This document shows, one piece after another, positions 17,496 to 41,898 of a stretch of 64,000 nucleotides of DNA (positions within the stretch are counted from its first letter, which is position 1; every line of letters begins with the position of its first letter). The notes beneath the pieces are model-generated. The model searched no databases. It saw only the letters and a list, made by a program, of their open reading frames with translations, and was not told where the DNA came from. The position numbers were made by a program, and so were the translations under genes. The DNA comes from Myxococcota bacterium (GTDB lineage Bacteria > Myxococcota_A > UBA9160 > SZUA-336): positions 608,001 through 672,000 of the forward strand of contig CBDFGR010000002.1 of NCBI GenBank assembly GCA_965247115.1, given 5' to 3'.

Positions 17496-17499
17496 CCCA

Positions 17500-21868: not shown

Positions 21869-22201
21869 ATGGCTGGAGCCACGGTCTTTCATCGCTTCGT
21901 CACAGACGCGAACCCGATCCAGGTCGAGTGGATCGCGATCACGGCCGACTCGGCCCAGGACAACCCCGACGGCTCAGTCAAGAGCCATCTGATCAACCCC
22001 CTGCGCGCCGTCCTTCTGCCAGCCAACCAGGACCGCGGCGGCACTCCATCCGGGGCCAGCGTCGCGCTTCGGCAAGGCTCACCGGAGCTGACTCTCCACG
22101 ATCTCGAGAGCGATCAGGAGATCATGGTGATCGTGATCGGTTTCGGGAGCGTCGACTACACCGAGAAGTACAGACCCGAAGGGACCGGACGCGAGTCTTG
22201 A
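21869..22201 (+). CDS. Hypothetical protein (110 aa), paralog of 38738-39097
   Basis: GGAGG RBS. Gap-free similarity to 38738-39097 supports coding. Stop lies 4 nt before the E1-alpha start. Confidence 0.8.
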   Translation: MAGATVFHRFVTDANPIQVEWIAITADSAQDNPDGSVKSHLINPLRAVLLPANQDRGGTPSGASVALRQGSPELTLHDLESDQEIMVIVIGFGSVDYTEKYRPEGTGRES

Positions 22202-22205
22202 GCCG

Positions 22206-23339
22206 ATGGACAGCATGGAACCAGTGAGCAGACTGAACGGGGCCCCTGCAGAGGGCGAACCCCTCGCAGCGGAGAAGCTCGAGCGAATCGACTACTTCGA
22301 AGATCTGCGCGAGCGCTACGTTTCGTTCGACGGGCTAGGCTCCCGCTGGCTCCCGAAGGACCCGGACTCGCTGTCCCTCGACAAGCCGGCATACCTCAGG
22401 CTGCATCACCTCATGTCGCTCACGCGCGCCGTCGAGGAGACGCTGGACTCCGCGTTTCGGGCCGGACACGTCCCCGGAACGGCATTCTTCGGCCGAGGAA
22501 ACGAGGCCGCGAGCGTAGGCGGGGCCTTCTGCCTGCGCGACGACGAGTGGCTCGTACCCATGCATCGCAACTGCGGCGCCCACCTCGCCAAGGGCCACCC
22601 ACCCGAGAGCATCATGGCGCAGTTCTTTGGCCGCGTGGACTCCCCTAGCGCGGGTCGCGAGGGAAACCTCCACCTGGGCTATCGCCCAAAGAAGATCACA
22701 CAGCTGATCAGCCACATCGGCACCATGGTGCCGATCGCGGCGGGGCTGGCCCTGGCCACCAGGTCGAAGGGCCCGGGCTCGGCAGTCCTCACGTACATCG
22801 GAGACGGTGGGACGAGCACCGGGGACTTCCACGAGGGGCTCAACTTCGCTGCCGTGCGCCGCCTCCCCCTGGTCGTCGTGATCGACAACAACCAGTACGC
22901 ATACAAGACGGCGCCGTCGGAGCAGTACGCGTCCCCGACCCTGGCCCAGAAGGCGCCAGGCTACGGGATTCCGGGCTACCTGATCGACGGCACCGACCTG
23001 AGGCTCGTCCTACAGGTGTGCGGACGGGCGCTGGAGCGCGCCCGCGCGGGCGAGGGCGCGACCCTGATCGAGAGCGTCACGATGCGGACCGTCGGGCATT
23101 CCGTCTACGACAAGTTCAAGGATTACGTCGATCTCGAGAACCTGAAGCGCTGGGTGGAGCAGCGGGACCCGATTCGTCTCTTCGACCAGGTGCTGCTCGA
23201 TCATGCCATCGCGACCGAGGAGGAGCTCCGCGCCTCGCACGAGCGCGCGCGCGAGCAGGCCGAGTCCGCACGTGATACGGCGCTGCAGAGTCCGTTCCCC
23301 ACTCCGGAGAGCGTGACCGAGGGCGTCTACGCCGAGTGA
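22206..23339 (+). CDS. TPP-dependent 2-oxoacid dehydrogenase E1 alpha subunit
   Basis: TPP motif GDGGTSTGDFHEGLNFA...IDNNQYA, RTVGHSVYD, RDPI. Confidence 0.92.
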   Translation: MDSMEPVSRLNGAPAEGEPLAAEKLERIDYFEDLRERYVSFDGLGSRWLPKDPDSLSLDKPAYLRLHHLMSLTRAVEETLDSAFRAGHVPGTAFFGRGNEAASVGGAFCLRDDEWLVPMHRNCGAHLAKGHPPESIMAQFFGRVDSPSAGREGNLHLGYRPKKITQLISHIGTMVPIAAGLALATRSKGPGSAVLTYIGDGGTSTGDFHEGLNFAAVRRLPLVVVIDNNQYAYKTAPSEQYASPTLAQKAPGYGIPGYLIDGTDLRLVLQVCGRALERARAGEGATLIESVTMRTVGHSVYDKFKDYVDLENLKRWVEQRDPIRLFDQVLLDHAIATEEELRASHERAREQAESARDTALQSPFPTPESVTEGVYAE

Positions 23340-23343
23340 GCCG

Positions 23344-24342
23344 ATGAGCCAACCCACGTATCGCGAAGCGATCAGTACCGCCCTCTGGGAAGAGATGGAG
23401 CGGGATCCGAGTGTGTTCCTGATCGGCGAAGATATTGGCGTCGGTGGGGGCGCCTTCTACATCACAAAGGGATTCCAGAAGCACTTCGGACCCGAACGCG
23501 TCATCGACGCGCCGCTCTCGGAGGCGGGATTTACGGGTGCCGCGATCGGCGCTGCTCTCGACGGAATGCGCCCCGTCGTGGAGTTCCAGTTCGCCGACTT
23601 CGTGACCGAGACATTCAAGATGATCGTCGACTTCGCAGCGGGCAATCACTACCGCATGATGGGACCCGTGCCGCTGGTCCTTCGCCTTCCGGCAGCCGCT
23701 CTCGCCAGTGCTGGTCCGTTCCACAGCGTGAACCCAGAGCCCTGGTTCTTCGGCACACCCGGCCTGAAGATCGTTGCGCCCACAACGGCGTACGACGCCA
23801 AGGGCATGCTCAAGGCCGCGATCCGCGACGAGAACCCGGTCGTGTACATCGAGTACAAGAAGCTCTACAACTACCCGCTCGCAGAGCTCCCTCTAGTGTT
23901 GAGGCCCGAGGTGCCCGCCGAGGACTACGTTGTTCCCTTCGGCGAGGCAAGGATCCTGCGCCCGGGCGAAGATGTGTCGCTGGTTACCTTCGGGACGACA
24001 GTACTCGAAGCCCTCGAGGCAGCGGAGATCCTCGCCGGCGAGGGCGTATCGGTCGAGGTCCTGGATATGCGTTCGCTTGTCCCCTACGACCACGCAGCCT
24101 TGCTCGAGACGGTACGCAAGACGGGCAGGCTTCTCATCTTGCACGAGGCCCGCAAGCGCGGGGGCATCGGCGCCGAGTTCGCCACGATCGTCGCCGAAGA
24201 GGCGTTCGAGGAGCTCGACGCGCCGATTCGACGCGTCACCGCGATCGATACGCCCGTCCCCTTCAGCCCCCCTCTCGAGAAGGCCTACCTTCCAAACTCG
24301 GATCAGGTCGTTCAGGCGTTGCGCGATCTGGCCGCGTATTGA
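23344..24342 (+). CDS. 2-oxoacid dehydrogenase E1 beta subunit
   Basis: IGEDIG, RVIDAPLSEAGFTG, EFQFADF, GPFHS, DAKGMLKAAIRDENPV. Confidence 0.93.
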   Translation: MSQPTYREAISTALWEEMERDPSVFLIGEDIGVGGGAFYITKGFQKHFGPERVIDAPLSEAGFTGAAIGAALDGMRPVVEFQFADFVTETFKMIVDFAAGNHYRMMGPVPLVLRLPAAALASAGPFHSVNPEPWFFGTPGLKIVAPTTAYDAKGMLKAAIRDENPVVYIEYKKLYNYPLAELPLVLRPEVPAEDYVVPFGEARILRPGEDVSLVTFGTTVLEALEAAEILAGEGVSVEVLDMRSLVPYDHAALLETVRKTGRLLILHEARKRGGIGAEFATIVAEEAFEELDAPIRRVTAIDTPVPFSPPLEKAYLPNSDQVVQALRDLAAY

Positions 24343-24356
24343 GCTGAGCGCCGCTC

Positions 24357-25724
24357 GTGAACGTCGCCCGGATTCGGATGCCGCGAATGGGATCGGGGGT
24401 GCATGAGGGCACGGTCGTCGAGTGGAAGAAGAGCGCCGGAGACGCAATCAGTAAGGGCGAGGTCCTGCTTGCCGCCGAGAGCGAGAAGGTGGACTTCGAG
24501 ATCGAAAGCCCCGCCGACGGAGTGCTCACCCGAATTCTGATCGAGGCGGGGACCGAGGTGCCTGTCGGGGAGATCCTGGGACTGCTGGAGACGGAGGCGG
24601 TCGTCCCGGACGCGACCCCGGAGCTCGAGCTCAGCGACTCGCCGCCGGAGCCGGGCGACGCTCGCCCCACGGCGCCGCCGAAGTCGGACGAGTGGGTGGC
24701 GCCGATCGCGCCTCTGCCTCCCCGGGAGGCGCGCTCGGCTCCGACGCGTGCCGCGAGTACCGCGGCTACCGGGCGCTCACGCTCTCGGCCGACCCGACTC
24801 TCGCCACGCGCGCGCCGGCTGCTGGAGGAGCACGGTCTCTCAGAGGACAGCGTCGCCCGCATCCCCGGGACCGGCGCGGGCGGTCGCGTGACGGCGCGCG
24901 ATGTCGAGGCGTTCGCGCACGACACGGCCGCCCAGCTCCCGGGCGCGCCGCTCGCAACGAAAGCCGGCACTGCTACACAGATCCCCGTCGTGTTCCGCCC
25001 GCTAGCCGAGGGGGAGCCTCTGGAGACTCGCGTGGCGCACGGACCGGTGCGGCGTCGCATCGCCGAACGGCTCAGCCAGTCGGCTCGAGAGATTCCGCAG
25101 GTCACCAACCACGTGGACGTCGACCTGGCAGCCATCGCCACCTGGCGGCAGCTGCACAAGGACCGCTTCCGGCGCCGGCACGCAGCCCCGCTCACCTACA
25201 CCCCGTTCTTCGCACTCGCCATCATTGCCGCCTTGCGGGACCCCGCTCATGCGAGGTTCAACGGCACCTACGAGGAAGACGCTGTCGTCGTAAAGCGCTT
25301 CCTCAACCTGGGGGTCGCCGTAGACGCCCCCCAAGGTCTGGTCGTGCCGGTGCTGCGCGGAGCGGACCAGCTCGATTTCGTCGAGCTGGTCCAAGGCCTC
25401 GAGGACCTGACCTCGCGCGCACGGGCCGGCAAGCTCTATCCCGGCGAGATGCGGGAGGGCACCATCTCGCTCAGCAACTTCGGCGTTGCCGGCGTCGTCT
25501 CGGCAAACCCGCTGATCAACCCTCCCCAGCTCGCCATCGTCGGCACGGGAGCTGTGGTTTCCCGAGTCGTGGCGCTGCCTGGAGACACCATCGGAATCCG
25601 CCCCGTGCTACAGCTGTGCGTGACCTTCGACCATCGGGCCAATGACGGGGGCGCAGCCGGTCGCTTCACCTCGGCGGTGGGCGCCGCACTGGAACACATG
25701 GACCTGACGCACCTGCACTACTGA
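24357..25724 (+). CDS. Dihydrolipoamide acyltransferase E2
   Basis: Lipoyl domain ESEKVDFEIESP, E3-binding SPRARRL...GTGAGGRVT, catalytic TFDHRANDG. Confidence 0.92.
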   Translation: MNVARIRMPRMGSGVHEGTVVEWKKSAGDAISKGEVLLAAESEKVDFEIESPADGVLTRILIEAGTEVPVGEILGLLETEAVVPDATPELELSDSPPEPGDARPTAPPKSDEWVAPIAPLPPREARSAPTRAASTAATGRSRSRPTRLSPRARRLLEEHGLSEDSVARIPGTGAGGRVTARDVEAFAHDTAAQLPGAPLATKAGTATQIPVVFRPLAEGEPLETRVAHGPVRRRIAERLSQSAREIPQVTNHVDVDLAAIATWRQLHKDRFRRRHAAPLTYTPFFALAIIAALRDPAHARFNGTYEEDAVVVKRFLNLGVAVDAPQGLVVPVLRGADQLDFVELVQGLEDLTSRARAGKLYPGEMREGTISLSNFGVAGVVSANPLINPPQLAIVGTGAVVSRVVALPGDTIGIRPVLQLCVTFDHRANDGGAAGRFTSAVGAALEHMDLTHLHY

Positions 25725-26926
25725 GCGGCTTCGGAGAGGACTCCGCGGTCGAGGCGCACGGCGACAGGCAGCGTGACGAGCAAACCCAGAAGCCCTGAGA
25801 CGAGGACGGCCCAGCCAAGGCTCGAGTACCCCCAATTCTGCGCCAGGAGCCCCATCGTTCCCGGACCCATGGCGCCACCGACCGTGCGACAGGTGATGGC
25901 GAGCGAGCTCCAGCGACCGAGCGGGTCGAGCGCGGCGAGACACCCGATCGCGTAGGGCAGCGTGAAGAAGGTCGCGGTTGCCCAGATCGGCAACAAGACG
26001 ATGAACACCGTCGGGTTCTCCGTGCGCGCCATGCCCATGCCCGCCAGCACGATCACGGTAATGCCGAACACGAACGGGCGCGTCCGGCCAAAGCGAGTGC
26101 TGAGCCACGCCGCCAGGCCTGCGCCCCCACTGCTCAACAGGGTTGCCAGGCCCAGCGCCTGGCCGATCGCCGGCAGGGAGAGACCCATCCGAGTCCCGAG
26201 GCGCTCTGTCCAGACGTAGAGCCCCACCTCTTCGCCCCCGAGTAGCAGCACGCCGAGAAGCACCGGAATGGCCAGGACCGCTCGCGGCGCGTCGCGGAGG
26301 CTGGTCTTCGCCTCTGTCTCCTTCCCGACGGGCGGCGGCGGGAGCCACGAGAGGAGCGGGAACGCGAGCAGGCAGATCCCGGCCAGCACGGCGTAGGCAC
26401 CGTGATAGCTCCAGGCCTCGATCGCGTAGGGCTCCAGGGCGAGCAGTACCGCGCAGAAAGGCGTCGCGATGATCAGGAACAGCGCGAACAGCCGATCCGG
26501 CTCGCGCGCGGCCGCGATGGCAGCGTAGCCGGCGGCGTAGAGCATCCCAACGCCGGCTCCGATCGTGACGAAGGCAACGAGGAGCACCTCGAACGACTGC
26601 GCCGCGATCGCGATCACGTCTCCCAGAAGAGCCACGGCGGCGCCGGCGCGCGCGAGGGCCACGCGGGAGATCCGGCCAACACGCGACGAGAGAAAGAGGG
26701 AGACACCCGCGATCGCGGCGAGCTCGAGAGTTCCGATCAGCCCCGTCTGGCCCGGCGTCAGGTTGAGCTCGTCCACGATCGCACCCAGGATCAACGGGAG
26801 GGAGCTGTTCGTGCAGAAGCCGACGCCGAGCGCAGCCACGACCGAGGTGACCACGCGCACGTCGATCCCGTGACCCGGGGCCGAGGGTTGCCCGTTCGAG
26901 GACGCGATTTCGGGCCCTGCGCTCAC
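25718..26926 (-). CDS. MFS transporter
   Basis: Hydrophobic helices. IDVRVVTSVVAALG, PDRLFALF and AALDPLGRW mirror 15383-16585. Start inferred at GTG 26926. Confidence 0.83.
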   Translation of the reverse strand: MSAGPEIASSNGQPSAPGHGIDVRVVTSVVAALGVGFCTNSSLPLILGAIVDELNLTPGQTGLIGTLELAAIAGVSLFLSSRVGRISRVALARAGAAVALLGDVIAIAAQSFEVLLVAFVTIGAGVGMLYAAGYAAIAAAREPDRLFALFLIIATPFCAVLLALEPYAIEAWSYHGAYAVLAGICLLAFPLLSWLPPPPVGKETEAKTSLRDAPRAVLAIPVLLGVLLLGGEEVGLYVWTERLGTRMGLSLPAIGQALGLATLLSSGGAGLAAWLSTRFGRTRPFVFGITVIVLAGMGMARTENPTVFIVLLPIWATATFFTLPYAIGCLAALDPLGRWSSLAITCRTVGGAMGPGTMGLLAQNWGYSSLGWAVLVSGLLGLLVTLPVAVRLDRGVLSEAAQ

Positions 26927-26945
26927 GCTCGCTCGCGCTCGGCGC

Positions 26946-27263
26946 TCAGTGGTCCGCGACGACTTCGTAGAAGTGCGTGTCGTTGCTTTCGAAGTACCTG
27001 CCGATGGAGGCGGGGAGCCGCTCGCCGGGCTTCGGAGGCCCGTGGTTCCGCTGCAGCTGCGCAACGTGAGCGTCGAGGGCTGCCTCATCCGTCCACTGCT
27101 CGTAGACCACGAAATCGCGCGGATTGTCGACGTCGCGCAGATAGGCATAGGCAATGCAGCCCTTGTCCTCCGCGTGGGTCGTGCGGGTGATGCGCTCCGC
27201 GAGCTTCGCGTACTCTTCCTCCATGCCCTCGTTGATGCGGAGTTTCACGACGATCGTTAGCAT
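26946..27263 (-). CDS. Antibiotic biosynthesis monooxygenase (ABM)-domain protein
   Basis: EDKGCIAY, FVVYEQWTDEAALDAH. Confidence 0.85.
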   Translation of the reverse strand: MLTIVVKLRINEGMEEEYAKLAERITRTTHAEDKGCIAYAYLRDVDNPRDFVVYEQWTDEAALDAHVAQLQRNHGPPKPGERLPASIGRYFESNDTHFYEVVADH

Positions 27264-27274
27264 GCTCGCTCCTT

Positions 27275-28174
27275 TCAGGCTTCGGGGGAGGCGCTCTCGA
27301 GCGCCTCGGCTATGGCGACGATGCGCCGGGCCTTCCGGGCCAGCGCGATATCAACGAAGACACCATCGACGGTGAGGGCGGCGGAGCCCTCGGCCTCGGC
27401 CGCCTTTGCGGCCGCGATGACACGGCGGCAGAACTCGACTTCCGCCGGATCCGGTCCGAACCGCTGATTGGCGACCGGAACCTGGTCCGGATGCAGGCAG
27501 AGCTTCCCCTGGAAGCCGAGGAGTCGCGCCCGCTCGCAATCCGCCAGGAAGCCCTCGGCGTCGCGCACCTCGAGGTAGGGGCCGTCGATGGGTCGCTCGC
27601 AGCTCGCGGCGCGCGCATCGAGAATCAGCTTGGCCCGCGCGTAGGCGAGCTCCTCGCCGCTGCGCGACCAGCGAATCGTGAGCAGATCCAGCTCACGGGT
27701 GAGATCACCGCTTCCCAGCACCAGCGTGCGCACCCGCGGACTCGCCGCCGCGATCTCGGCGCCACACACGATTCCCCCCGGCGTCTCGACGAGTGGAAGG
27801 ATCGAAACCGGCCCGGCCAGGTCGCGCTCGCCCTCGAGCTCGGAAAGCCGTCCCGCGAGCTCGACGACCGACTGCGGACTGGCCTTTGGCAACATGACCG
27901 CATCCAGGCCGGGGGCGGCGACCGCGTCCAGGTCTTCCTTCCACAACCCGGTCTCCAGTGCCTGGATCCGCACGCAGGTCAGCGGCACCTGGACCTCGGC
28001 GAGTGCGTCGCGCACGATTGCGCGCGCGCGCGCCTTCTCGCGCGCTGGAACCGCGTCCTCGAGATCGAGCACGACGGCGTCGGCGCCGGACCGAGCCGCC
28101 TTCCCGATCCGGTCGGGCCGGTTGCCCGGGACGAACAGCACCGAGCGCAGGAGCGGGATCGGGCGGTCCGTCAT
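27275..28174 (-). CDS. CitE-like CoA-ester lyase (HpcH/HpaI aldolase/citrate lyase beta family)
   Basis: RSVLFVPGNRP, LDLEDAV, PLVETP, LGSGDL, GFQGKLCLHPDQV. Confidence 0.92.
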   Translation of the reverse strand: MTDRPIPLLRSVLFVPGNRPDRIGKAARSGADAVVLDLEDAVPAREKARARAIVRDALAEVQVPLTCVRIQALETGLWKEDLDAVAAPGLDAVMLPKASPQSVVELAGRLSELEGERDLAGPVSILPLVETPGGIVCGAEIAAASPRVRTLVLGSGDLTRELDLLTIRWSRSGEELAYARAKLILDARAASCERPIDGPYLEVRDAEGFLADCERARLLGFQGKLCLHPDQVPVANQRFGPDPAEVEFCRRVIAAAKAAEAEGSAALTVDGVFVDIALARKARRIVAIAEALESASPEA

Positions 28175-30414: not shown

Positions 30415-30441
30415 TGGTGAACCTCTTCGACCCGCGATGAC

Positions 30442-31245
30442 CTAGCCGAACGCCCGGAGGAACTCGATCATCGCGCGACTGGTCGCCTCTGGCTGCTCGT
30501 AGGGGTAATAGTGGCCACAGTTCGGGATGATCCTGAGAAGGGAGTTCGGGAGCGCCGCGTGCAGGTCTCGGGACATCTGCAGCGGTGTGCGACCATCGGC
30601 GTCGCCGCAAAGTACGAGCGTGGGACATTCGATCTTGGCCAGGTCGGTCTCGCTGATCGGCCCCGCCACCGCCCGGACCATCTCCGCGTAGCTCGTCGGC
30701 TCATTGCGGAGCAATGTCTGCCTGAGCTTCTCCAGCGCCTCCGGATTGTGCTGGACGGTGTAAGGGCTGTGCGCGGCCTTCGTGAACTCCCAGGTCTTCT
30801 CGATGATCTCCTCGATGGGAGCCCCACTCTCCGCGAGCTGCTGCCTCAGCTCGAAGCCGCTGCGGTCCGTCGGCACCGGGCGCGGTCCCGCCGCTCCCAT
30901 CGCGACCAGGGCCCGCGTTCGGCCCGGATTCTGCGCCGCGAAACGCGTGATGATGGCGCCGCCCAGCGACCAGCCCGCGAGCGCGGCCTCGTGCAGATCG
31001 AAGCCCTCCAGAAAGCCCCGCAGGTCGTCCACCCAGAGCTGCTGCGAGAGCGGCGGCTCCGGCGGGCGGACCGTCTGGCCGAAGCCGCGCAGGTCCATGG
31101 CATAGACGGTGAAGTGCGGCGTGAGCCGCGGAACCAGCCACTCCCACGCGAGCGAGTCAACACCCCCCCCGTGCACCAGCACGAGCGGCGGCCCCTGGCC
31201 ATTTACCTCGAAGAAGATCTCCAGGTCTCCAATCGATCTGAACAC
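30442..31245 (-). CDS. Alpha/beta hydrolase
   Basis: LVHGGG, MDLRGFG, AGWSLGG, NCGH. Start inferred at GTG 31245 by alignment with paralogs. Confidence 0.88.
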   Translation of the reverse strand: MFRSIGDLEIFFEVNGQGPPLVLVHGGGVDSLAWEWLVPRLTPHFTVYAMDLRGFGQTVRPPEPPLSQQLWVDDLRGFLEGFDLHEAALAGWSLGGAIITRFAAQNPGRTRALVAMGAAGPRPVPTDRSGFELRQQLAESGAPIEEIIEKTWEFTKAAHSPYTVQHNPEALEKLRQTLLRNEPTSYAEMVRAVAGPISETDLAKIECPTLVLCGDADGRTPLQMSRDLHAALPNSLLRIIPNCGHYYPYEQPEATSRAMIEFLRAFG

Positions 31246-31255
31246 GCTACCTCCC

Positions 31256-32065
31256 TCAGCGAAACGCCGTGACGAAGGTGATGATCGACCGGCTCGTCGC
31301 CTCGGGCTGCTCGCGGGCGTAGTTATGGCCACAGTCGGCGATGATCCTGAGGTAGGAGTTGGGAAGAGCCTTGTGCAGGTTCTCGGACATCTCGAGCGGA
31401 GTGCGCGAATCCGAGTCGCCGCAGATCACGAGTGACGGGCAGGTGACGGCTTTGAGCTTTCCCTCGAGGATCGCCGGATCTTCGCGGCAGCGGAGCATCT
31501 CGGCGTAGTCGGTGGGGCGGTTGCGGCTCAGCATCAGCCGAACCTTCTCCACGGCCGTGGGATTGTGCTCGAGGCTGTACTTGCTGAACGTCACTTTGGT
31601 GAACTCGAAGGTCCTCTCGACGATCTCCTCCATCGTTATGCCGCTCTCCACAAGCGCCATGCGATCTTCGAAGCCCTTGCGGTCCCAGACCCCCGTATGG
31701 GAGCCGGGCGCGCCCATCGGGATCAGGTGGGTCACCCGATCGGGATAGACCGTCGCGAAGTTCATCACAATGATGCCGCCGAGCGACCAGCCCGCGAGCG
31801 CGGCCCTCTCGATCCCGAAGCTGTCCATGAAGTTCTTGAGATCCTCGGTCCAGACGTCTGCATGCAGCTTTGGCTCCGGCGGCCGCACCGTCTTGCCGTG
31901 GCCACGCAGATCCATCGCATAGACCTGGAAGTGCCTGGCAAGGCTCGGGATGACCTCCTCCCACCAGACCGCATCCGCCCCACCGCCGTGGAGGAGCAGT
32001 AGCGGATGCCCCTCGCCCTCTACGACGTAGTTGACCTCCAGATCCCCGATCGTCTTGAACATCAC
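31256..32065 (-). CDS. Alpha/beta hydrolase
   Basis: LLHGGG, DLRGHG, AGWSLGG, DCGH. Tandem paralog of the adjacent hydrolase. Confidence 0.88.
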   Translation of the reverse strand: MMFKTIGDLEVNYVVEGEGHPLLLLHGGGADAVWWEEVIPSLARHFQVYAMDLRGHGKTVRPPEPKLHADVWTEDLKNFMDSFGIERAALAGWSLGGIIVMNFATVYPDRVTHLIPMGAPGSHTGVWDRKGFEDRMALVESGITMEEIVERTFEFTKVTFSKYSLEHNPTAVEKVRLMLSRNRPTDYAEMLRCREDPAILEGKLKAVTCPSLVICGDSDSRTPLEMSENLHKALPNSYLRIIADCGHNYAREQPEATSRSIITFVTAFR

Positions 32066-32083
32066 TCCTCCCGACGCCGAGCT

Positions 32084-33067
32084 CTAGATGAGATGCGGCT
32101 CCAGATCTGCGTACGTTTCATCTCGCCTGAAGTAGAACTCAACCCCGAGCCCGTCAGGATCCTCGAGGAAGATGCTGCGCTTGCTCGGCACATCGACACG
32201 ACGGGTCACCTCGAGGGAAGCGCCCGAGAGCATGCCCTCCGCCGCCTCGAGGTCGGCTTCGTCTTCGATCTCGAAGGCCATGTGGACCAGTCCTGGCGGG
32301 CGGTCGTGCGTCGCCCGAACGAGCGCGAGATCGTAGCCGTGTCGCGGTTGCTTGCCGCGCAGGAGAGCGACACCCGCCTCGGCGCGGGAGTGCACGACCT
32401 GCAGCCCCCCGACCTCCGCGTAGAAGCGCAGGCAGTCGTCGAAGTTCGCGACGGAGAGCACGGCGTGTGTGATCCTGGACGGGTGGAAGATCGCGCCCTT
32501 TGCGCGCTGGATCTCGGGGTCGACCGGGTAGAAGGACTCGGCGACCGGCGGGGAGTCGCCAGGAACCCACGGATCGGTGATGACCTCGTTCTTGAAGGCC
32601 TCGAAGATCGCGCGCCAGTCCTTGACCGAGTCGGCGTAGAACTCGACCCCGTTGCCGTCCGGGTCGAACAGGTAGACGCTGCGCGAAAGCTTGTGATCCA
32701 CCGTCATGCGGAAGTCCACGCTGGCCGCCCGCGCGCGCTCATACCCAACCACGAGCTCTGCCTCGTTCTCCATCTCGAAGGCCAGGTGGTTGATCCCAGG
32801 CTTGCGGCCCCAGGTCTTCGGGTCGGACCGCGGCTGATCGGAGCCCAGGATCCGGTCATCCAGGATCCGTGTGTCCTGGATCTCGACCATGCCGATGTCG
32901 TGGTGCGTGTTCCCGTTGCTCAGGAACCCCGCGTGGATCGCGGGCTCGCGGAACACCTCTTCGAGGCCCGCGACCTCGTTGTAGAAGGCCATCGAGCGCT
33001 CTAGCTCGCCCACATAGAGATTCGCGTGCCCGAGCCGCCGCGGCCCGAAACCGATCTGTTCGCCCAT
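32084..33067 (-). CDS. Two-domain VOC protein, extradiol dioxygenase-like
   Basis: RLGHANL, NTHHDIG, INHLAFE, DHKLSRSVYLFDPDGNGVEF. Paralog of 18313-19293. Confidence 0.82.
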   Translation of the reverse strand: MGEQIGFGPRRLGHANLYVGELERSMAFYNEVAGLEEVFREPAIHAGFLSNGNTHHDIGMVEIQDTRILDDRILGSDQPRSDPKTWGRKPGINHLAFEMENEAELVVGYERARAASVDFRMTVDHKLSRSVYLFDPDGNGVEFYADSVKDWRAIFEAFKNEVITDPWVPGDSPPVAESFYPVDPEIQRAKGAIFHPSRITHAVLSVANFDDCLRFYAEVGGLQVVHSRAEAGVALLRGKQPRHGYDLALVRATHDRPPGLVHMAFEIEDEADLEAAEGMLSGASLEVTRRVDVPSKRSIFLEDPDGLGVEFYFRRDETYADLEPHLI

Positions 33068-33110
33068 TATCATTCCCCCTTTGTGAAACCGGGAGCTGAC
33101 AGCAAACGCA

Positions 33111-34274
33111 TCATGATGCGGCGAGCTCCTCTCCGACCGTCATCCGGATCACGTACTTGTCTAGCTCCCAGGTAGTTCTCTCAAGATACGAAAAGCGCCC
33201 CGGGGGGAGCAGTCTCGACTTCATCCCCCGGTGTGTGAGCTTCGCACCCACCATGTCCTGGTTATTGGTCACGATGAACCCCTCCTGCGCAGCGGCCAGG
33301 TGCTTGTCGAAATCGGGGATCTTCGTCGTGGACTCAGGATAGTATAGGTTCAGCGTCACGTTGGTTCGCCCCGCCCCCTCGGGATAGAAGAACAGAGCCA
33401 GGGCCCCTGTCGGCAACGGCGCCACCAGCGTGCTCGGATAGATCAGGAACATGCTGAAGCTCTGCAGCTCGAAGGGCGTGAGGCCTTCGAGCGCGGGAAA
33501 CGGAGATACAACTTCGTTGGTGCCGGTCACATAGGGAAAGGGGGCGTCTGCCTTCGTGAACGAGCAGGTCCAGCTCTGATTCGGATCCTCTTCACCGAAG
33601 GTGGCTCCGACTCGCTTCACGCTGCGCCGCATGAAGTGGATGTTGGGCACGTGGTACATGTCGATCGCCTGCTCGGCAGAGAGCTTCCAGTTGCACTGGT
33701 TCCAGAACGGCATGCCCTGGGTGGTCCGGAGCTCGCTCATCTTGTAGTTCCCGAATAGCTCGGAAAGCCGGACGAGCCTCGGTCCCAGCGGAGCCGCGTC
33801 GCGATCGAAGTTCACGAAGATGAAGCCCTCCCACACTTCCACGCGGAGCTCGGGGAGCGACCAATCGCGAACGTGGAAGTCCGCCGTGCGGTTCATCTGC
33901 CGGGCTCCGAGAAGCTCTCCCCGGAGGTTGTAGGTCCAGCCGTGAAAAGGACACTCGAGGTATTTCGTGCTGCCCGCACCTTCGACGATGCAGGCTCCCC
34001 GGTGCCGACATGTTCGGGAGAACGCGCGCAAGACCCCCTTGTCGTCGCGCAGGATCACGATCGGCTCCTCGACGATGTCAGCGCAGAAGTAGTCGCCGGG
34101 GCTCTCGACCTGATCGACGCGACCGACGCCCAGCCACTCCTTCATGAAGATCTTCTCGATCTCGAGCTCGTAGAACTCCGGCGAGGTGTAGCAGTACGGC
34201 GGGAGGGTGTGAGCCTGGTCGAGGGGTGCGAGCACCCTCCTGAGCTGCTCTCTCAGCTCGCTCCTGACCTCCAA
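33111..34274 (-). CDS. Rieske non-heme iron oxygenase alpha subunit
   Basis: CRHRG...CPFHGW, NWKLSAEQAIDMYHVPNIH, NNQD. Close paralog of 20507-21685. Confidence 0.92.
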   Translation of the reverse strand: MEVRSELREQLRRVLAPLDQAHTLPPYCYTSPEFYELEIEKIFMKEWLGVGRVDQVESPGDYFCADIVEEPIVILRDDKGVLRAFSRTCRHRGACIVEGAGSTKYLECPFHGWTYNLRGELLGARQMNRTADFHVRDWSLPELRVEVWEGFIFVNFDRDAAPLGPRLVRLSELFGNYKMSELRTTQGMPFWNQCNWKLSAEQAIDMYHVPNIHFMRRSVKRVGATFGEEDPNQSWTCSFTKADAPFPYVTGTNEVVSPFPALEGLTPFELQSFSMFLIYPSTLVAPLPTGALALFFYPEGAGRTNVTLNLYYPESTTKIPDFDKHLAAAQEGFIVTNNQDMVGAKLTHRGMKSRLLPPGRFSYLERTTWELDKYVIRMTVGEELAAS

Positions 34275-34296
34275 ATGGTCTCTCCTTTGTTGCTGG

Positions 34297-36732
34297 CTAG
34301 GGGCGCTTGGAGCTCGACCTGGAGGATCTGGGACCGTTGCCGAAGATGCTCAGGTCCTCCGAGTCGAAGCTACGGGAGACACTGATCCCGTACCTGCGAG
34401 GGGGGGCCGCGTAGACGTGGGTGTTGTTGAAGCTCGCGACGCGGAACGCGGTGTTCGCGTAGTTCCGATCCAGCAGGTTCTTGCCCCACAGCGCGATCTC
34501 GGTCTTGCCGTCAGGAAGCAGGAGCGAGATGCGGCCGTTCAGCAGTCCGTAGGCGTTCTGCTGCGCGTCCTTGCTGTTCTGCACGTCGTAGTACGTCTTT
34601 GACTGGTGGTACCAGTCGGCTCGAACAATCAGCTCGCCCATGGGGAGGCTAGCTCGGTAGTCGCCTCCCAGCCCGAAATTCAGCGCAGGTGCGTTCGCGA
34701 AATGGAGCCCGGCCCTGTCGATGGGCCCTCCGGTGTCGGGATCGACGTCGTCGAACTCGTCATAGCGAGCCCAGGTGGTCCCCACCTGCCCCTCGATGCG
34801 GAGATTCGAGGCGACCAGCGCGGTGAGCTCGAGCTCGATGCCGGAGATCGTCGCTTTACCGGCGTTCCGGACGGTCGAGACGATCCCCCGACCCTCCTCT
34901 CCTCCTCCCTCAGTTCCCTGGCCCGACTCTCCGAAAGCGATCAGCTGGATATCGTCGTACTCACCGTAGTAGAAGACTCCGTTTGCGATGACGCGGTTTT
35001 CGAACAGCTGGACCTTGACGCCGGCCTCGAAGCTGTCCAGGGTCTCGCTCTCGAAAGGGTTATCCAGCTCTTCCTGACGCAGCAGGAACCCGTTGAAGCC
35101 GCCACTGCGAAACCCGCGACTGTAGCCGGCGTAGAACATCAAATCGTCGTTGGGGCGGAAGCGGACGTTGAACCGGGGCGTCCAGCTCTGAAAGCGGTCG
35201 CTTCCCTTTCCAACGAAGACCGGATCGCCCGCGAAAATCGCGAACTCGTTGACGATGTCAATCTCCTTGTAGTCGGCTGTACGCCGGACGCCAGCGGTGA
35301 CGGAGAGGCTGTCAGTAAGGTCGTAGGTGAACTCCGCAAAGCCCGCCAAGCTCGACGCAGTTGCGGTCTCATCGACCCCGACCCGCTCGGGCCCGAAGAT
35401 GTCCGCGAAGAAGTCGGTGTCGTCGTTGAAATCGCCGACCTCGCGGAACCAGTAGAGTCCGGCCACATAGTTCAGGCGGCCGTCCGCTGCGATGCCGGTG
35501 AACTGGATCTCCTGGCTGAGCTGATCCTCTCGGTTCGACGTCAGGAGGAACTCGTTGCCGATGTTCTCGCGACTCATATCATCGTCGAAGCGGAGCTGGT
35601 ACTCCTGAGCTCGCCAGGCGGTGATGGACTTCAAGGAGAGCTCGCCAAGGAAGCCCACCTCTCCCAGGTCGTAGTCGATGATGGCCGTTGAGGACCAGGT
35701 GTCGACGTCGTTCTTGCCTGCCAGCTGCGAGTCGACATCGTGGTAGTCCGCTGCTCGGACGGCGTCACAGGACTCCTGGTATGGGATACCAAAGAGCCCG
35801 GCAAGCTCCACGACGGCGGCGCCCTGCGGGGCCGGTGGATCGATATAGAAGCACTTGGCAATGGGCGACTTCGTGCGGCTGCGTGAGTAGTCATAACTCA
35901 CGTTGATGTCGAGCCGATCGTTCGGGATGAAGCGCAGAGCGGCGCGCACGGCTCTGTTGTTCCCGGTCGCGAAGTGCGAGCCATCGAAAATGTTGTCCAG
36001 GTAACCCTCGTCGTTGCGGAGGCCCAGGTTGAGACGGAGGAAGAGCTTCTCGGCGAGCGACCCCACCCCGATCGGGACGTTGAGCATCAGCTTGCTCATG
36101 ACCTGCTCCTGGTTGCCGAGACCCGCCTCGGCGTAGGCCTCGAACTCCGGCTGGGGCTTCCTGGTGATGTAGTCGATCGCGCCGCCCACGGTGTTCCGGC
36201 CAAAGGTCACGCCCTGAGGGCCGCGGAGCGCCTCCACGCGCTCGAGATCGATCACGTCGAACAGGCCTCCCGTCATCCGTGCCAGGTACACGCCGTCGAC
36301 ATAGATACCCACCCCCTGGTCGCGGGTCGGCGTGAAGTCCTCCTGTCCAACACCGCGGATGTAGACCTTGGAGTAGGTGCTGCCCGAGACGTTCTCAAAG
36401 GTCAGGTTCGGAACGGACCGGGTCAGCTCCCGGTTCTCGAAAACGGAACGTATGCTCAGATCCTCGGCGGAGAAGGCAGAAACTGCGACTGGGACGTCCT
36501 GTAGCCTCTCCTCGCGTTTCCGCGAGGTCACGACGATCTCCTCGATGGCATCGGGGGCGTCTCGAGCCTCAGGGGACTCCGTGGCGACCGACTCCTGGGC
36601 GGCCACGGGAACCTTGCCTTCGGGCTCGTCGGCTGTAGCAGAGAGTACTGGCCCAACAAACAGGACGAGCACGACGAGTGCGAGTCCGCGAAGCCCCCAC
36701 CTTGACAGCATAATCAACATTGAGAGCAGCAT
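34297..36732 (-). CDS. TonB-dependent receptor
   Basis: GGAGG RBS before ATG 36732, signal-peptide-like N-terminus. TonB box IEEIVVTSRKREE, DLERVEALRGPQG..FGRNTVGGAI, GFRSGGFN, KNLLD, PRRYG. Confidence 0.92.
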   Translation of the reverse strand: MLLSMLIMLSRWGLRGLALVVLVLFVGPVLSATADEPEGKVPVAAQESVATESPEARDAPDAIEEIVVTSRKREERLQDVPVAVSAFSAEDLSIRSVFENRELTRSVPNLTFENVSGSTYSKVYIRGVGQEDFTPTRDQGVGIYVDGVYLARMTGGLFDVIDLERVEALRGPQGVTFGRNTVGGAIDYITRKPQPEFEAYAEAGLGNQEQVMSKLMLNVPIGVGSLAEKLFLRLNLGLRNDEGYLDNIFDGSHFATGNNRAVRAALRFIPNDRLDINVSYDYSRSRTKSPIAKCFYIDPPAPQGAAVVELAGLFGIPYQESCDAVRAADYHDVDSQLAGKNDVDTWSSTAIIDYDLGEVGFLGELSLKSITAWRAQEYQLRFDDDMSRENIGNEFLLTSNREDQLSQEIQFTGIAADGRLNYVAGLYWFREVGDFNDDTDFFADIFGPERVGVDETATASSLAGFAEFTYDLTDSLSVTAGVRRTADYKEIDIVNEFAIFAGDPVFVGKGSDRFQSWTPRFNVRFRPNDDLMFYAGYSRGFRSGGFNGFLLRQEELDNPFESETLDSFEAGVKVQLFENRVIANGVFYYGEYDDIQLIAFGESGQGTEGGGEEGRGIVSTVRNAGKATISGIELELTALVASNLRIEGQVGTTWARYDEFDDVDPDTGGPIDRAGLHFANAPALNFGLGGDYRASLPMGELIVRADWYHQSKTYYDVQNSKDAQQNAYGLLNGRISLLLPDGKTEIALWGKNLLDRNYANTAFRVASFNNTHVYAAPPRRYGISVSRSFDSEDLSIFGNGPRSSRSSSKRP

Positions 36733-36935
36733 TGCGCACCTCCGGGGGCCCGCTTGCATACTCGCACCGGGCCCGAGAATAACCCTACGGCTGCGATGCT
36801 CCCACGCAGAGCGCTGCCAGTCAAACGACCAAAGCTGGCCTCCGAATACGCAACCCGCGCCCCACCACGAGGGCGCTTGGCAGTCATGCGGTGCCGTGTC
36901 ACACTCGCTGTGAATCACCGAAACCGGAGGTGGAC

Positions 36936-37388
36936 ATGGCCAGCTACAAAGTGCTCGGCACTGATCACACGGCGTACACGGTCTCGGACATGGACCGGAG
37001 CGTGAAGATGTTCTGTGAGGTGCTCGGCTTCGAGCTCCTGAGCGACGACGAGGCCGAAAGCGGTCTGGTCAAGGAGCTGACCGGCGTGGACGCCCCGCTC
37101 CGCTTCGTCTACCTGCGCGGGCCGGACGGACACCAGGTCGAGCTCGTGCAGTACCACGGACCCGCAGACCGGGGGCAGATCCACTACCGACCCTGCGACA
37201 CCGCAGCCGCTCATATGGCGATCCGCGTCGACAACGTTCCAGCCGCCGTGGAGGCGGCCAAGGGCGCCGGACTCACGCCTTACAACCAGATCGTCACGAT
37301 GGAACACGAGGACGGCGGCGTCACGCAGTCCGCGTACATGCGCGATCCGGACGGACTCACCATCGAGCTGCTGAGCCGCCCAAGCTAG
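36936..37388 (+). CDS. VOC/glyoxalase family protein
   Basis: DHTAYTVSDMDRS, VELVQY, AHMAIRV, RDPDGLTIEL. GGAGG RBS. Confidence 0.88.
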   Translation: MASYKVLGTDHTAYTVSDMDRSVKMFCEVLGFELLSDDEAESGLVKELTGVDAPLRFVYLRGPDGHQVELVQYHGPADRGQIHYRPCDTAAAHMAIRVDNVPAAVEAAKGAGLTPYNQIVTMEHEDGGVTQSAYMRDPDGLTIELLSRPS

Positions 37389-37408
37389 ACCTGAGGCGCG
37401 ATCCGTAG

Positions 37409-37837
37409 ATGAAGATCACTCCGGTCCATCCACAGGAACCGAAGCCCGAACACAACATGCCGTTCGTCCCGGCGTTCTCGGTCGAGGGCGGGCGCACGAT
37501 CTGGTTGGCCGGCTGCGGCCCGATTCCGATCTACCACAAGCACCCGCACGATCCCATCGAAGAGGCGGCGTGGATGGAAGGCGGCTTCCGCGCGCAGTGC
37601 GACAAGACCTTCCAGAACATCCAGACCGTGCTGCAGGCTGCGGGAGGCGACCTCGCCAACATCGTGAAACTGACGATCTACCTGACCGACATCTTCCGGG
37701 ATCAGGACGTGCTCAACGAGATCACCTGGAAGCTGTTCGGCCACGAGCGCATGCCGCCTCGAACGATCGTCGAGATCGCGTCGCTTGCCCACAAGGACAT
37801 GCTGCTCGAGATCGACGCGACCGCAGTCGTCCCCTGA
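37409..37837 (+). CDS. RidA/YjgF family protein (retains conserved Arg)
   Basis: IWLAG, NIVKLTIYL, PPRTIV, LLEIDATAV. Confidence 0.88.
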   Translation: MKITPVHPQEPKPEHNMPFVPAFSVEGGRTIWLAGCGPIPIYHKHPHDPIEEAAWMEGGFRAQCDKTFQNIQTVLQAAGGDLANIVKLTIYLTDIFRDQDVLNEITWKLFGHERMPPRTIVEIASLAHKDMLLEIDATAVVP

Positions 37838-37845
37838 GACGGCCC

Positions 37846-38244
37846 TCAGCCCGGAATCCCGACCACGCACTCCACCTCGATGAGCAGCTCCGGGAGCGCC
37901 AGGTTGGAGACCTCGACCAGCGTGCTCGCGGGTCGCGCGTTCCCGAAGAATGCCTCGCGGATGGGGTTGATCTTCGCGCGGTCAGCGATGTCCTTCAGGT
38001 AGATGGTGACCTTCAGGATGTCGGCTGGGCTCGCTGCCTCGGCGCTCAGCACCTTGCCGATGTTGCTGAACACCTCGCCAGCCTGAGTCAGCACGTCGCC
38101 CTCACCGATCACCTGGTGTTGCTCGTCGAGCGCCACCATCCCCGAGATGAAGAGCAGATTCCCGAACCGAACCGCGTCGGTATAGTGGCTGATGGGCGGA
38201 CTGAGACTGGCGACCCGGACTTCCGTGCGCGTTTCCTTGCTCAT
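37846..38244 (-). CDS. RidA/YjgF family protein (lacks conserved Arg)
   Basis: SHYTDAV, LFISGMV, ILKVTIYL, PASTLVEVSNL, IEVECV. Confidence 0.88.
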   Translation of the reverse strand: MSKETRTEVRVASLSPPISHYTDAVRFGNLLFISGMVALDEQHQVIGEGDVLTQAGEVFSNIGKVLSAEAASPADILKVTIYLKDIADRAKINPIREAFFGNARPASTLVEVSNLALPELLIEVECVVGIPG

Positions 38245-38330
38245 GGACGCATGATAAGCGCCTGGCTTCCGGATTGACATTCCAAAGAGGACGTTCCAGC
38301 CTAGCTGCGAGCCACCGAAGGAGGAAAGCA

Positions 38331-38726
38331 ATGCAGAAGGAGGTCATCAACCCAGATACGCTCGCGCCTCCGGTCGGCCACTTTGACCGGGCCGTACGTA
38401 TCGACAATACCCTCTACATCTCGGGAACGTCGGCCCTGACGCACGTCACGGGGGGCCTGCGGGAGCGGAAGATTCCGCCGACGATCGAGGAGCAGACCCG
38501 GCTCACCTTTGAGAACATCCGGAGAGTGCTCGAGGCGGCGGGAGGCCAGCTCTCCGACATCTTCAAGCTCACGGTCTTCCTCGTGCGAGCGGAGGATTTC
38601 GAGGTCGTCGACCAGATCACGCGCGAGTTCTTGCCCGCGCGCGGCTTCATCAACTCCTCTTTCCAGACCGACCTACTCAACCCCGATCTGCTGATCGAGA
38701 TAGAGGCGACCGCTCAGCTCAAGTAG
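38331..38726 (+). CDS. RidA/YjgF family protein (lacks conserved Arg)
   Basis: PPVGHFDRAV, LYISGT, IEEQTR, IFKLTVFL, LIEIEATA. GGAGG RBS. Confidence 0.88.
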   Translation: MQKEVINPDTLAPPVGHFDRAVRIDNTLYISGTSALTHVTGGLRERKIPPTIEEQTRLTFENIRRVLEAAGGQLSDIFKLTVFLVRAEDFEVVDQITREFLPARGFINSSFQTDLLNPDLLIEIEATAQLK

Positions 38727-38737
38727 GAGAAAGACCC

Positions 38738-39097
38738 ATGGGCAACGCGCTAGTGAATCACCGATTCCTGACGGACATCAATCCGATCACCGTGGAGTGG
38801 ATCAAGCTCACCGGAGACACGCCTCAGGACAACCCGGAGAAATCAATCGGGAGCAACCTCGTAAACGTGATCACCGGAGTTGTGCTGCCCGCGAACGCGG
38901 ACCTGGGCGGACAGCCGACCCGGATGAGCCTGGAGATCGTGCCGGGAAGCCAGGAGCTCCTACTACACGACCTGGACGACGGCCAGGAGGCCCTCGTCAT
39001 CCTGATCGGCTTCGGGCGGCGGGACTTCCGCGACGTGTTCCAGAGAGAAGAGGACACGAACCAGTCGTTCGCCGCGTCCGGAGGCGAGGAGGAGTAG
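38738..39097 (+). CDS. Hypothetical protein (119 aa), paralog of 21869-22201
   Basis: AGGAG RBS. Shares HRF.TD.NPI.VEWI, QDNP, LPAN.D.GG, LHDL, IGFG with 21869-22201. Confidence 0.8.
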   Translation: MGNALVNHRFLTDINPITVEWIKLTGDTPQDNPEKSIGSNLVNVITGVVLPANADLGGQPTRMSLEIVPGSQELLLHDLDDGQEALVILIGFGRRDFRDVFQREEDTNQSFAASGGEEE

Positions 39098-41299: not shown

Positions 41300-41332
41300 C
41301 TTTTCTAGCGGACGGTGTTCGCCGCCCGACCC

Positions 41333-41788
41333 TCATCGGCCGACGCGATAGCCACCTCCGAAGCCGTAGCGAGCCCTCAATCGGCCGGAACTCAAGCCGG
41401 AGGTGTGGTGACTCCGTGGACGTCTGGCCATGCGAGCCGCGTTCCTCTCGTTGGGGCTGAGCTTCCCGTCTCCGTCCTTGTCGTACCTGCGGAGGAGGTC
41501 TGCTCGCTCGCCGGGACCTCGCATTCGCTGAACCTCGCGCGCCGCGATCAGCTCCTCAACGGAGATCTCACCGTCGCCATCGATGTCGTAGCGGCTCGTG
41601 CGGGCGGCGGCGTAGTGCTCCGCCCGATTGAGGACGCCATCGCCGTTGAAGTCCCGCTTCTCGAAGCGCTCCTGCTTCTCCGCCTGCGAGACCTCGTCGC
41701 CGCTGGCGGCAGAGGCCAGGAAGCCCGCGGAAAGGGCCAGCACCGCGATGGCGCCAACTTTCGCGCGCTCACTCAGGCGTGGTCGCAA
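41333..41788 (-). CDS. Secreted EF-hand domain protein
   Basis: Signal-peptide-like N-terminus. Three EF loops: DFNGDGVLNRAE, DIDGDGEISVEE, DKDGDGKLSPNE. Confidence 0.78.
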   Translation of the reverse strand: MRPRLSERAKVGAIAVLALSAGFLASAASGDEVSQAEKQERFEKRDFNGDGVLNRAEHYAAARTSRYDIDGDGEISVEELIAAREVQRMRGPGERADLLRRYDKDGDGKLSPNERNAARMARRPRSHHTSGLSSGRLRARYGFGGGYRVGR

Positions 41789-41877
41789 CGCTGTACCTCC
41801 GAGAGCGGATACCTGATGGTACTAAACCGAGCGCAAGTCTTCACGTTGCGCGAACCCGTCCGATCCGGGGGCGGCCC

Positions 41878-41898
41878 CTACAGGTTGCCCACCTCGTC
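41878..41898 (-). repeat. Imperfect direct repeat of the acyl-CoA dehydrogenase 3' end (42428-42448)
   Basis: ctacaggttgcccacctcgtc vs ctacaggttaccgacctcgtc, 19/21 identical. Both encode DEVGNL*. Confidence 0.75.

What the first reader, a model, noticed from the sequence alone, without database searches (positions are those of the whole stretch)
21869..39097. Pair of unassignable ~110-120 aa paralogous proteins, one per oxygenase module
Seen: 21869-22201 and 38738-39097 align without gaps, with about 52 of the first 96 residues identical by hand count (HRFxTDxNPIxVEWI, QDNP, LPANxDxGGxP, GSxELxLHDL, QExxVIxIGFG). Both have good RBSs, no Cys and no signal peptide. One leads the E1a/E1b/E2 operon and the other follows a RidA gene. 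I recognise no family. Inference: a new family of accessory proteins or small enzymes retained through the duplication, for example a Rieske structural partner, a substrate-binding protein or a His-dependent isomerase. It could be the marker gene for this pathway.
Basis: partly seen in the sequence, partly recalled or inferred. Interest (0 to 1): 0.8.

Follow-up and report, generated by a model that had tools for sequence, protein, structure and literature searches.

The report
Phage-tip-fold proteins beside Rieske oxygenases
Two related small genes in a bacterial aromatic-breakdown gene cluster encode a new, unnamed protein family that is predicted to fold like the tips of phage tail fibres and likely serves as a non-catalytic partner of the neighbouring oxygenases, which would be an unusual reuse of a probably viral binding fold in metabolism.

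Summary
In detail: two intact genes (110 and 119 aa), 52 of the first 96 residues identical, no gaps; the second is under purifying selection (pN/pS 0.14). No Pfam, NCBIfam, PHROG or PDB-sequence match. The family is real but small: 17 full-length bacterial-type representatives plus four shorter (89-96 aa) homologues. A confident AlphaFold model (pLDDT 84) is all-beta; three comparisons point to the gp53-tip / pyocin-foot / H-type-lectin sandwich (best Z 6.8, below a decisive level). The one short homologue tested resembles unnamed phage proteins (cosine 0.96, TM up to 0.82), but no phage locus was found. All four loci I could read lie within 7 kb of one beta-subunit-less Rieske oxygenase subfamily; E1/E2 and RidA are inconstant neighbours. 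Best reading: a likely phage-derived, likely trimeric binding protein co-opted as a non-catalytic partner of these oxygenases (0.35); metabolite carrier or small enzyme remain open. The scan's earlier notes held nothing on this family. New family in a probably known fold, in a context for which I found no precedent.

The parts
21869..22201 (+). Gene 1 (P0001), 110 aa, new family, predicted all-beta sandwich; first gene of the E1a/E1b/E2 run, divergent from two Rieske alphas
38738..39097 (+). Gene 2 (P0002), 119 aa paralogue, 11 nt after a RidA-family gene; purifying selection
20507..21685 (-). Rieske oxygenase alpha subunit (Rieske + Ring_hydroxyl_A), divergent from gene 1
19309..20493 (-). 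Second Rieske oxygenase alpha, 55% identical to the first
33111..34274 (-). Third Rieske oxygenase alpha (module 2), 73% identical to 20507-21685
18313..19293 (-). Two-domain VOC protein, likely ring-cleavage type (module 1)
32084..33073 (-). Two-domain VOC protein (module 2), 49% identical to the first
16638..18300 (-). alpha/beta hydrolase and FAH-family protein (module 1)
22206..25724 (+). 2-oxoacid dehydrogenase E1 alpha, E1 beta, E2; same order behind the orthologue in G002
30442..32065 (-). Two alpha/beta hydrolases (module 2)
34297..36918 (-). TonB-dependent receptor upstream of the third Rieske alpha
37409..38726 (.). Three RidA/Rid-family genes in alternating orientation, 32-40% identical to each other
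39099..40067 (-). FAH-family protein convergent with gene 2

Best explanation
These are two expressed-looking, intact paralogues of a new small-protein family that is predicted to fold like a phage fibre-tip / H-type-lectin beta-sandwich, is likely descended from small phage proteins, and likely works as a non-catalytic, probably trimeric partner that binds the neighbouring beta-subunit-less Rieske oxygenases. Shown: real genes, family membership, homology to the short forms, co-location with one Rieske subfamily, absence of a beta subunit. Predicted: the fold. Inferred: phage ancestry (from the resemblance of one short homologue to viral clusters), trimer (from the fold class), and the partner role. 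In this reading the inter-subunit groove or tip loops (D34, N53, H77) and the conserved C-terminal tail that the bacterial forms have added (GxxDxRDxF) would dock on the oxygenase and stabilise or organise it, while the cluster as a whole would import an aromatic or N-heteroaromatic compound, hydroxylate it, cleave the ring, hydrolyse and deaminate the product and oxidise the final 2-oxoacid.
For: Context: gene 1 is divergent from a Rieske alpha; in metagenome locus L006 a subfamily-B homologue sits between two Rieske alphas that are 48-61% identical to the window's three, against 29-33% for the genome's other alphas; in G002 the orthologue lies 6.7 kb from an 88-93% identical Rieske fragment. 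In 401 genomes of the phylum the small gene and this Rieske subfamily were each found in the same 2. A third VOC/FAH/hydrolase module of the genome has no such Rieske and no small gene. The genome's only beta subunit lies beside another alpha. Fold: pLDDT 84, pTM 0.75, seven strands, no helix; top VIA match AP22 gp53 head, Z 6.8, rmsd 2.8, 80 aligned, with pyocin feet at Z 5.9-6.3 (4 of the top 5 rows); the same structures lead or rank high in Foldseek and fibre tips dominate the viral library. Short homologues: reciprocal HMM E 5.5e-14 and 2e-13, hhalign 98.6%; P0019 scores 0.96 to 96-100% viral clusters, TM 0.70-0.82 to standalone viral proteins and 0.67-0.69 (by query) to Gp53-like_C parts. 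Precedents: an H-type-lectin domain repurposed to bind a protein in its trimer groove (CofB-CofJ, PMC6048534); a foreign-fold structural subunit of an alpha-only Rieske system (NdmE, PMC4408171).
Against: Only four loci from three sources could be read, two of them in one genus. Z 6.8 is under the tool's mark of 8, and an unrelated adaptor mu domain ties at Z 6.3; no Foldseek match reached E 0.001; no member of 22 matches PF21882 or PF09458 even at E 10. No phage locus for any family member was found in 8 IMG/VR scans, 4 INPHARED searches or PHROGs. Gene 1 and its orthologue are translationally tied to E1 alpha, not to the Rieske gene, and gene 2 to RidA. In G002 the gene is intact although the Rieske gene is a fragment. 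Related alpha-only Rieske oxygenases (CntA, Stc2; recalled) work without such a partner.
Confidence: 0.35

Rival explanations
1. A free ligand-binding protein: same fold and origin, but it binds a small molecule of the pathway (substrate, catecholic or ring-cleavage intermediate, or a metal) at the tip loops and acts as carrier, buffer or sensor without docking on the oxygenase.
For: The near-invariant polar residues D34, N53 and H77 (each 20 of 21) fall, by residue offset from the VIA range 7..92 = 180..271, at the three distal loops L1, L3, L5 that carry the ligand and metal sites of this fold (PMC6363177 Table 2). gp53 binds glycerol and ethylene glycol (10.1101/518761). The two copies sit in different operons, as a diffusible protein could.
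Against: Those residues are shared with the short, probably viral forms, so they are not specific to metabolism. The loop mapping is by offset, not by coordinates. No conserved aromatic platform except F10, W21, F92.
Confidence: 0.22
2. A small enzyme (isomerase, tautomerase, hydratase or deaminase) acting on an unstable ring-cleavage intermediate.
For: Neighbours are all enzymes of downstream steps (RidA, FAH, E1/E2). The Rieske-free sister module carries three small cupins in comparable positions. Conserved Asp/Glu/His/Arg/Asn/Ser are available; the one H77 exception is in the decaying G002 cluster.
Against: I know no enzyme with this fold (recalled; none among the top VIA rows as a catalytic domain). 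H8 and H40 vary. The invariant set is mostly that of the short forms.
Confidence: 0.2
3. An accessory of the 2-oxoacid dehydrogenase (E1/E2) complex, with gene 2 a diverged spare.
For: Gene 1 ends 4 nt before E1 alpha; the G002 orthologue overlaps the E1 alpha start and the order E1a/E1b/E2 is kept. RNA-library contigs span the junction (weak).
Against: Gene 2 and the L006 homologue have no E1 next to them; in L006 both flanks are Rieske alphas. Gene 2 is under purifying selection.
Confidence: 0.1
4. A passenger: a phage-derived gene captured in a mobile catabolic island and kept for an unrelated job (phage decoy, surface or host-glycan binding).
For: Fold class is that of adhesins; patchy distribution (2 of 401 genomes); insertion sequences and an integrase near the G002 copy.
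Against: No export signal seen; both deep bacterial subfamilies sit beside the same Rieske subfamily; duplicated and conserved along with the enzymes at similar divergence (49-73%); GC3 0.80-0.85 like its neighbours.
Confidence: 0.13

Closest known systems
Phage AP22 gp53 head (PDB 4MTM; Pfam Gp53-like_C PF21882) and R-pyocin fibre foot (6CL6, 6CU2, 6CXB)
   Same: Predicted ~90-residue antiparallel beta-sandwich superposes at Z 5.9-6.8, rmsd 2.8-3.3 A over 75-81 residues; the core ends in Gly-aromatic as many fibre tips do (recalled).
   Different: 9-14% identity, no Pfam match; standalone, no fibre shaft, no virion genes among the window ORFs scanned; extra conserved C-terminal tail; sits in a catabolic cluster.
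H-type lectins (PF09458; discoidin I, snail agglutinin)
   Same: Same fold class according to PMC6363177 and 10.1101/518761; discoidin I matches at Z 4.7; similar size as standalone proteins.
   Different: No sequence match; sugar binding and trimer untested; metabolic context.
Unnamed standalone 82-92 aa phage proteins (ESM Atlas clusters, 90-100% viral)
   Same: Short homologue P0019 scores 0.96 by features and TM 0.70-0.82 by structure; P0001 itself 0.90 (weak).
   Different: No alignment or E-value links them; their function is unknown; the bacterial forms are about 20 aa longer.
CofB H-type-lectin domain (ETEC type IVb pilus)
   Same: Precedent for this fold binding a protein rather than a sugar, in the trimer groove (PMC6048534, passages read).
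   Different: Extracellular pilus tip domain; not among the listed structural matches; analogy only.
NdmE of the NdmCDE Rieske-type N-demethylase; beta subunit of alpha3beta3 dioxygenases (PF00866)
   Same: Functional analogy: small or foreign-fold non-catalytic subunits of Rieske oxygenases (PMC4408171, passages read).
   Different: NdmE is GST-like, the beta subunit is an alpha+beta fold (recalled); neither matches in sequence or predicted fold.

Membership tests
Gp53-like_C / H-type lectin | Match to PF21882 or PF09458 | tested here: not met
   0 of 22 members at E up to 10;
Gp53-like_C / H-type lectin | Beta-sandwich superposable on gp53 head / pyocin foot / discoidin | tested here: inconclusive
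   Best match, Z 6.8, rmsd 2.8, 80 aligned; 4 of top 5 rows; but under Z 8 and tied with an adaptor mu domain; Foldseek E 0.02-0.06; Atlas TM 0.67-0.69 by query for P0019
Gp53-like_C / H-type lectin | Homotrimer | not tested
Gp53-like_C / H-type lectin | Binds carbohydrate at distal loops or subunit interface | not testable with these tools
   Conserved D34, N53, H77 map near the loops by offset only
Phage or tailocin fibre protein | C-terminal domain of a fibre, encoded among virion genes | tested here: not met
   Standalone 110-119 aa; no phage structural family among 64 other window ORFs scanned in Pfam; no PHROG match
Rieske dioxygenase beta subunit (PF00866) | Profile match and alpha+beta fold | tested here: not met
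   No Pfam match; the genome's single PF00866 hit is elsewhere; model has no helix
Ferredoxin (Rieske or plant type) | Cys/His cluster ligands | tested here: not met
   0 Cys in both proteins
Cupin | Double-stranded beta-helix with two His motifs | tested here: not met
   No Pfam match; cupin rows in Foldseek have TM about 0.3 and rmsd 9-14 A; one near-invariant His only
Accessory subunit of a Rieske oxygenase (works-like claim) | Constant gene association with one oxygenase subfamily | tested here: met
   4 of 4 readable loci within 7 kb; same 2 of 401 genomes; small and partly related sample
Accessory subunit of a Rieske oxygenase (works-like claim) | Physical binding to the alpha subunit | not tested
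   No complex prediction or experiment

The most novel reading that the evidence does not exclude
A small phage virion protein with the fibre-tip lectin fold was domesticated, gained a docking tail, and became a third kind of Rieske-oxygenase subunit: a trimeric cap for alpha3 oxygenases of an undescribed aromatic or N-heterocycle pathway in uncultured bacteria, for which it is the marker gene.
Probability: 0.2. Interest if true: 0.8.

Novelty: new variant of a known kind. Interest (0 to 1): 0.52.

Why it matters
If right, a fold known from phage and tailocin receptor-binding tips and from lectins has been recruited into cytoplasmic catabolism, and alpha-only Rieske oxygenases can carry an unrecognised accessory subunit, which bears on why such enzymes often fail to express or work alone. 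Whatever the mechanism, the family is a specific marker for an uncharacterised oxygenase pathway (closest plasmid-borne alpha about 35% identical; VOC about 27-33%) and a small, soluble, easily tested protein.

Tried and rejected
Sequence libraries: no hit in Pfam, NCBIfam, PHROGs (best E 0.052 for P0018), PDB sequences (best E 0.44-0.62), plasmids, INPHARED phages (46, 47 none; 114, 115 only E 0.03 or worse on part of the query, not followed). Dropped rows: P0016 (1036-aa repeat artefact); L002 (Actinomadura, 30-residue match at E 1e-3, not examined further); P0023 (Na/Pi cotransporter clustered with fragment P0020, no similarity); fragments P0017 and P0020 were left out of trees. P0038 is not taken as a functional fusion: it lacks the family's last strand and the first 24 profile positions of the VOC domain, so it looks like a deletion or assembly chimera; at most it hints at a neighbouring VOC gene. 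Phage context: 8 IMG/VR scans (43, 60, 75, 76, 86, 91, 113, 125) gave 46 pattern loci, none a homologue by HMM (92, 117, 128); those were endonuclease-like proteins. First metagenome scan found nothing; the single GTDB-wide scan used patterns that miss subfamily B (17), so subfamily B's hosts are unknown. Longer (fused) forms were searched only through the 1.84-billion HMM run with the 15-row alignment (29). First model (pLDDT 64) was superseded; aminopeptidase N hits (32) were non-significant. Complex prediction (trimer) was not available, and the second VIA look ('pdb_via') never ran. Promoter/terminator scan: nothing (119). RNA-library contigs cover parts of both genes and both junctions (72, 97) but come from one study and do not show transcription. 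Papers: searches listed nothing on this family or on this fold in a catabolic cluster; the library lacks most subscription papers, and no supplements were read. Earlier scan notes: searches gave nothing that bears on it.
Full report
Observation. Both ORFs are as described: 110 and 119 aa, 53/104 identical without gaps, 52 of the first 96, no Cys, RBS-like motifs 7-8 nt upstream. They are the only copies in the 5.17-Mb, 98%-complete genome. Their 90% clusters hold 6 and 8 intact variants. For gene 2, 16 of 23 listed strain differences are synonymous (pN/pS 0.14, p 6e-6). GC3 is 0.80 and 0.85, like the neighbours. RNA-library contigs of one study cover 22030-22448 and 38477-38974, which is compatible with expression but does not show it.

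Surroundings. Pfam on 64 other window ORFs chosen from 238 gives two paralogous modules. Module 1: Rieske alpha x2, two-domain VOC, alpha/beta hydrolase, FAH, MFS on the minus strand; gene 1, E1a, E1b, E2 on the plus strand. Module 2: TonB receptor, Rieske alpha, VOC, two hydrolases, CoA transferase, luciferase-like monooxygenase, CitE-like lyase; three Rid genes, gene 2, FAH. Paralogue pairs are 41-73% identical, the small pair 51%, which fits duplication with the modules. The alphas keep the CxH...CxxH motif (sequence), score best on glycine-betaine-monooxygenase-type models far below cut-off, and have no beta subunit: the genome's one PF00866 hit lies beside a different alpha. No ferredoxin or oxygenase reductase was seen among the cluster ORFs scanned. 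From established knowledge of these families the cluster reads as uptake, hydroxylation, ring cleavage, hydrolysis, imine deamination and 2-oxoacid oxidation of an aromatic or N-heteroaromatic compound; the substrate is not identifiable (closest plasmid alpha about 35%).

Family. A single-sequence search found one relative. The 1.84-billion HMM search gave 7 hits, one a repeat artefact, two fragments, and three short 89-93 aa proteins. A wider profile gave 20 hits among 1119 candidates, 14 of them a new 109-122 aa subfamily B, 44-50% identical to P0001; a short-form profile added P0058. Short and long forms are homologous: an HMM of the 4 short ones finds P0001 at E 5.5e-14, an HMM of the 17 long ones finds P0018 at 2e-13 (other short ones 0.006-0.08), both scaled to 1.84 billion; hhalign 98.6% over 90 columns. 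In a 21-row tree short forms and subfamily B are each one well-supported side, with the three window-type proteins between them (midpoint root, so no direction is shown). Positions kept in at least 20 of 21: V6, R9, P16, E20, I22, P33, D34, L41, N43, P44, N53, S64, H77, G91, F92. The short forms stop at G91-F92; the 17 long forms add a tail G-x-x-D-x-R-D-x-F (16-17 of 17 at these places).

Gene context elsewhere. The gene was found in 2 of 61 relatives and 2 of 401 phylum genomes, counting the own one; the other is same-genus G002, whose record is titled Myxococcota bacterium. There the orthologue directly precedes E1a/E1b/E2, in a cluster broken by insertion sequences, 6.7 kb from a C-terminal fragment of the same Rieske alpha. 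The Rieske subfamily (E 1e-90 or better, top 4 candidates scored per genome) occurs in the same 2 of 401 genomes; these are kin, so this is one observation, not two. Independent support comes from L006 (1,340 nt, 56% GC): a subfamily-B gene divergent from one Rieske alpha and convergent with another, 48-61% identical to the window's alphas against 29-33% for the genome's other alphas. A third VOC/FAH/hydrolase module on contig C3 (VOC 67% identical) has neither this Rieske subfamily nor the small gene, but three small cupins. So of four readable loci: Rieske subfamily 4, E1 2, RidA 1.

Fold. With 22 sequences AlphaFold2 gives pLDDT 84, pTM 0.75, five models 77-84, seven strands, no helix. Against 48,161 PDB representatives the best match is the AP22 gp53 head (Z 6.8, rmsd 2.8 A, 80 aligned, 14% identity); R2 and R1 pyocin feet follow at Z 6.3, 6.2, 5.9, an unrelated AP-4 mu domain at 6.3, discoidin I at 4.7; none reaches 8. 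Foldseek puts the R1 pyocin fibre first and gp53 sixth, mixed with cupins, none at E 0.001; the viral library, searched with the weaker model, is dominated by fibre tips and small standalone proteins (best E 0.002, TM about 0.5). The ESM Atlas gives P0001 only a weak 0.90 to viral hypothetical clusters but gives the short homologue P0019 0.96 to clusters that are 96-100% viral, TM 0.70-0.82 to standalone viral proteins and 0.67-0.69 by query to Gp53-like_C parts, all 'under the bar' for naming a family. Papers read in passages place gp53, pyocin feet, discoidin and agglutinin in one trimeric lectin fold whose three distal loops carry sugar and metal sites (10.1101/518761; PMC6363177). By residue offset those loops correspond to about 26-34 (QDNPD), 52-63 (ANxD) and 77-83 (HD) here; this is inference, not a measurement on coordinates. 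Against: no Pfam match in 22 members, and no phage locus was recovered for any member (see Tried and rejected), so viral origin rests on the Atlas resemblance of one protein.

Mechanism. A fold class known as a binding scaffold, no export signal seen, no cluster ligands, near-invariant residues shared with the short forms, a tail gained only in the oxygenase-linked forms, and a constant neighbour that lacks its usual small subunit together make a non-catalytic oxygenase partner my best reading (0.35). Precedents exist for each half: CofB's H-type-lectin domain binds a protein instead of GalNAc (PMC6048534, passages) and NdmE is a foreign-fold structural subunit of a Rieske-type demethylase (PMC4408171, passages). 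Rivals: free ligand or metal binder (0.22), small enzyme (0.20), passenger (0.13), E1/E2 accessory (0.10).

Verdict. Real, new small family; probably a known fold; context without precedent in eight paper searches and five look-ups of earlier scan notes. It is not filed as a member of Gp53-like_C or H-type lectins (profile test not met, fold test inconclusive). Novelty: new variant of a known kind. Interest 0.52; 0.8 if the domesticated-subunit reading (probability 0.2) proves true.

Noticed in passing
L001:10001-17600 (G002): The orthologous cluster is decaying: E1 beta is interrupted by a DDE transposase, the Rieske alpha is only residues 227-392, the CoA transferase is a fragment, and an integrase lies upstream; the small gene, E1 alpha and E2 are intact.
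   Followed up: partly
L055:5000-17000 (own genome, C3) and L056: A third VOC/FAH/hydrolase module, conserved in G002, with an amidase, three small cupins, an SDR and a UGSC-family gene, but no Rieske alpha of this subfamily.
   Followed up: partly
window 15383-40913: No ferredoxin or oxygenase reductase among the cluster ORFs scanned, although there are three Rieske alphas; the electron donor must be encoded elsewhere.
   Followed up: no
window 37409-38726: Three divergent Rid-family paralogues (32-40% identical) in alternating orientation; one has a 62% relative on contig C3.
   Followed up: no
window 52676-56780: A penicillin-amidase-family ORF covering only profile positions 2-439 of 675 runs into a DUF772/DDE transposase; the 459-aa ORF beyond has no Pfam match and may be the rest of the gene.
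   Followed up: no
window 9528-10232: Weak match to REP-associated tyrosine transposase, E 2e-7, below cut-off.
   Followed up: no
window 41315-42031, 46840-47499, 47622-48635, 62005-62730: ORFs of 219-337 aa with no Pfam or NCBIfam match; not checked for being real genes.
   Followed up: no
window 60752-60840: tRNA-Leu(GAG) just after the GAPDH/PGK/TIM genes; the genome also has a tRNA-SeC.
   Followed up: no
P0038: 198-aa database protein joining the first 80 residues of subfamily B to a VOC domain that lacks its start; likely a deletion or assembly chimera.
   Followed up: partly
P0020 / P0023: The database clusters a 45-aa family fragment with an unrelated 545-aa Na/Pi cotransporter; a clustering error that mimics a fusion.
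   Followed up: yes
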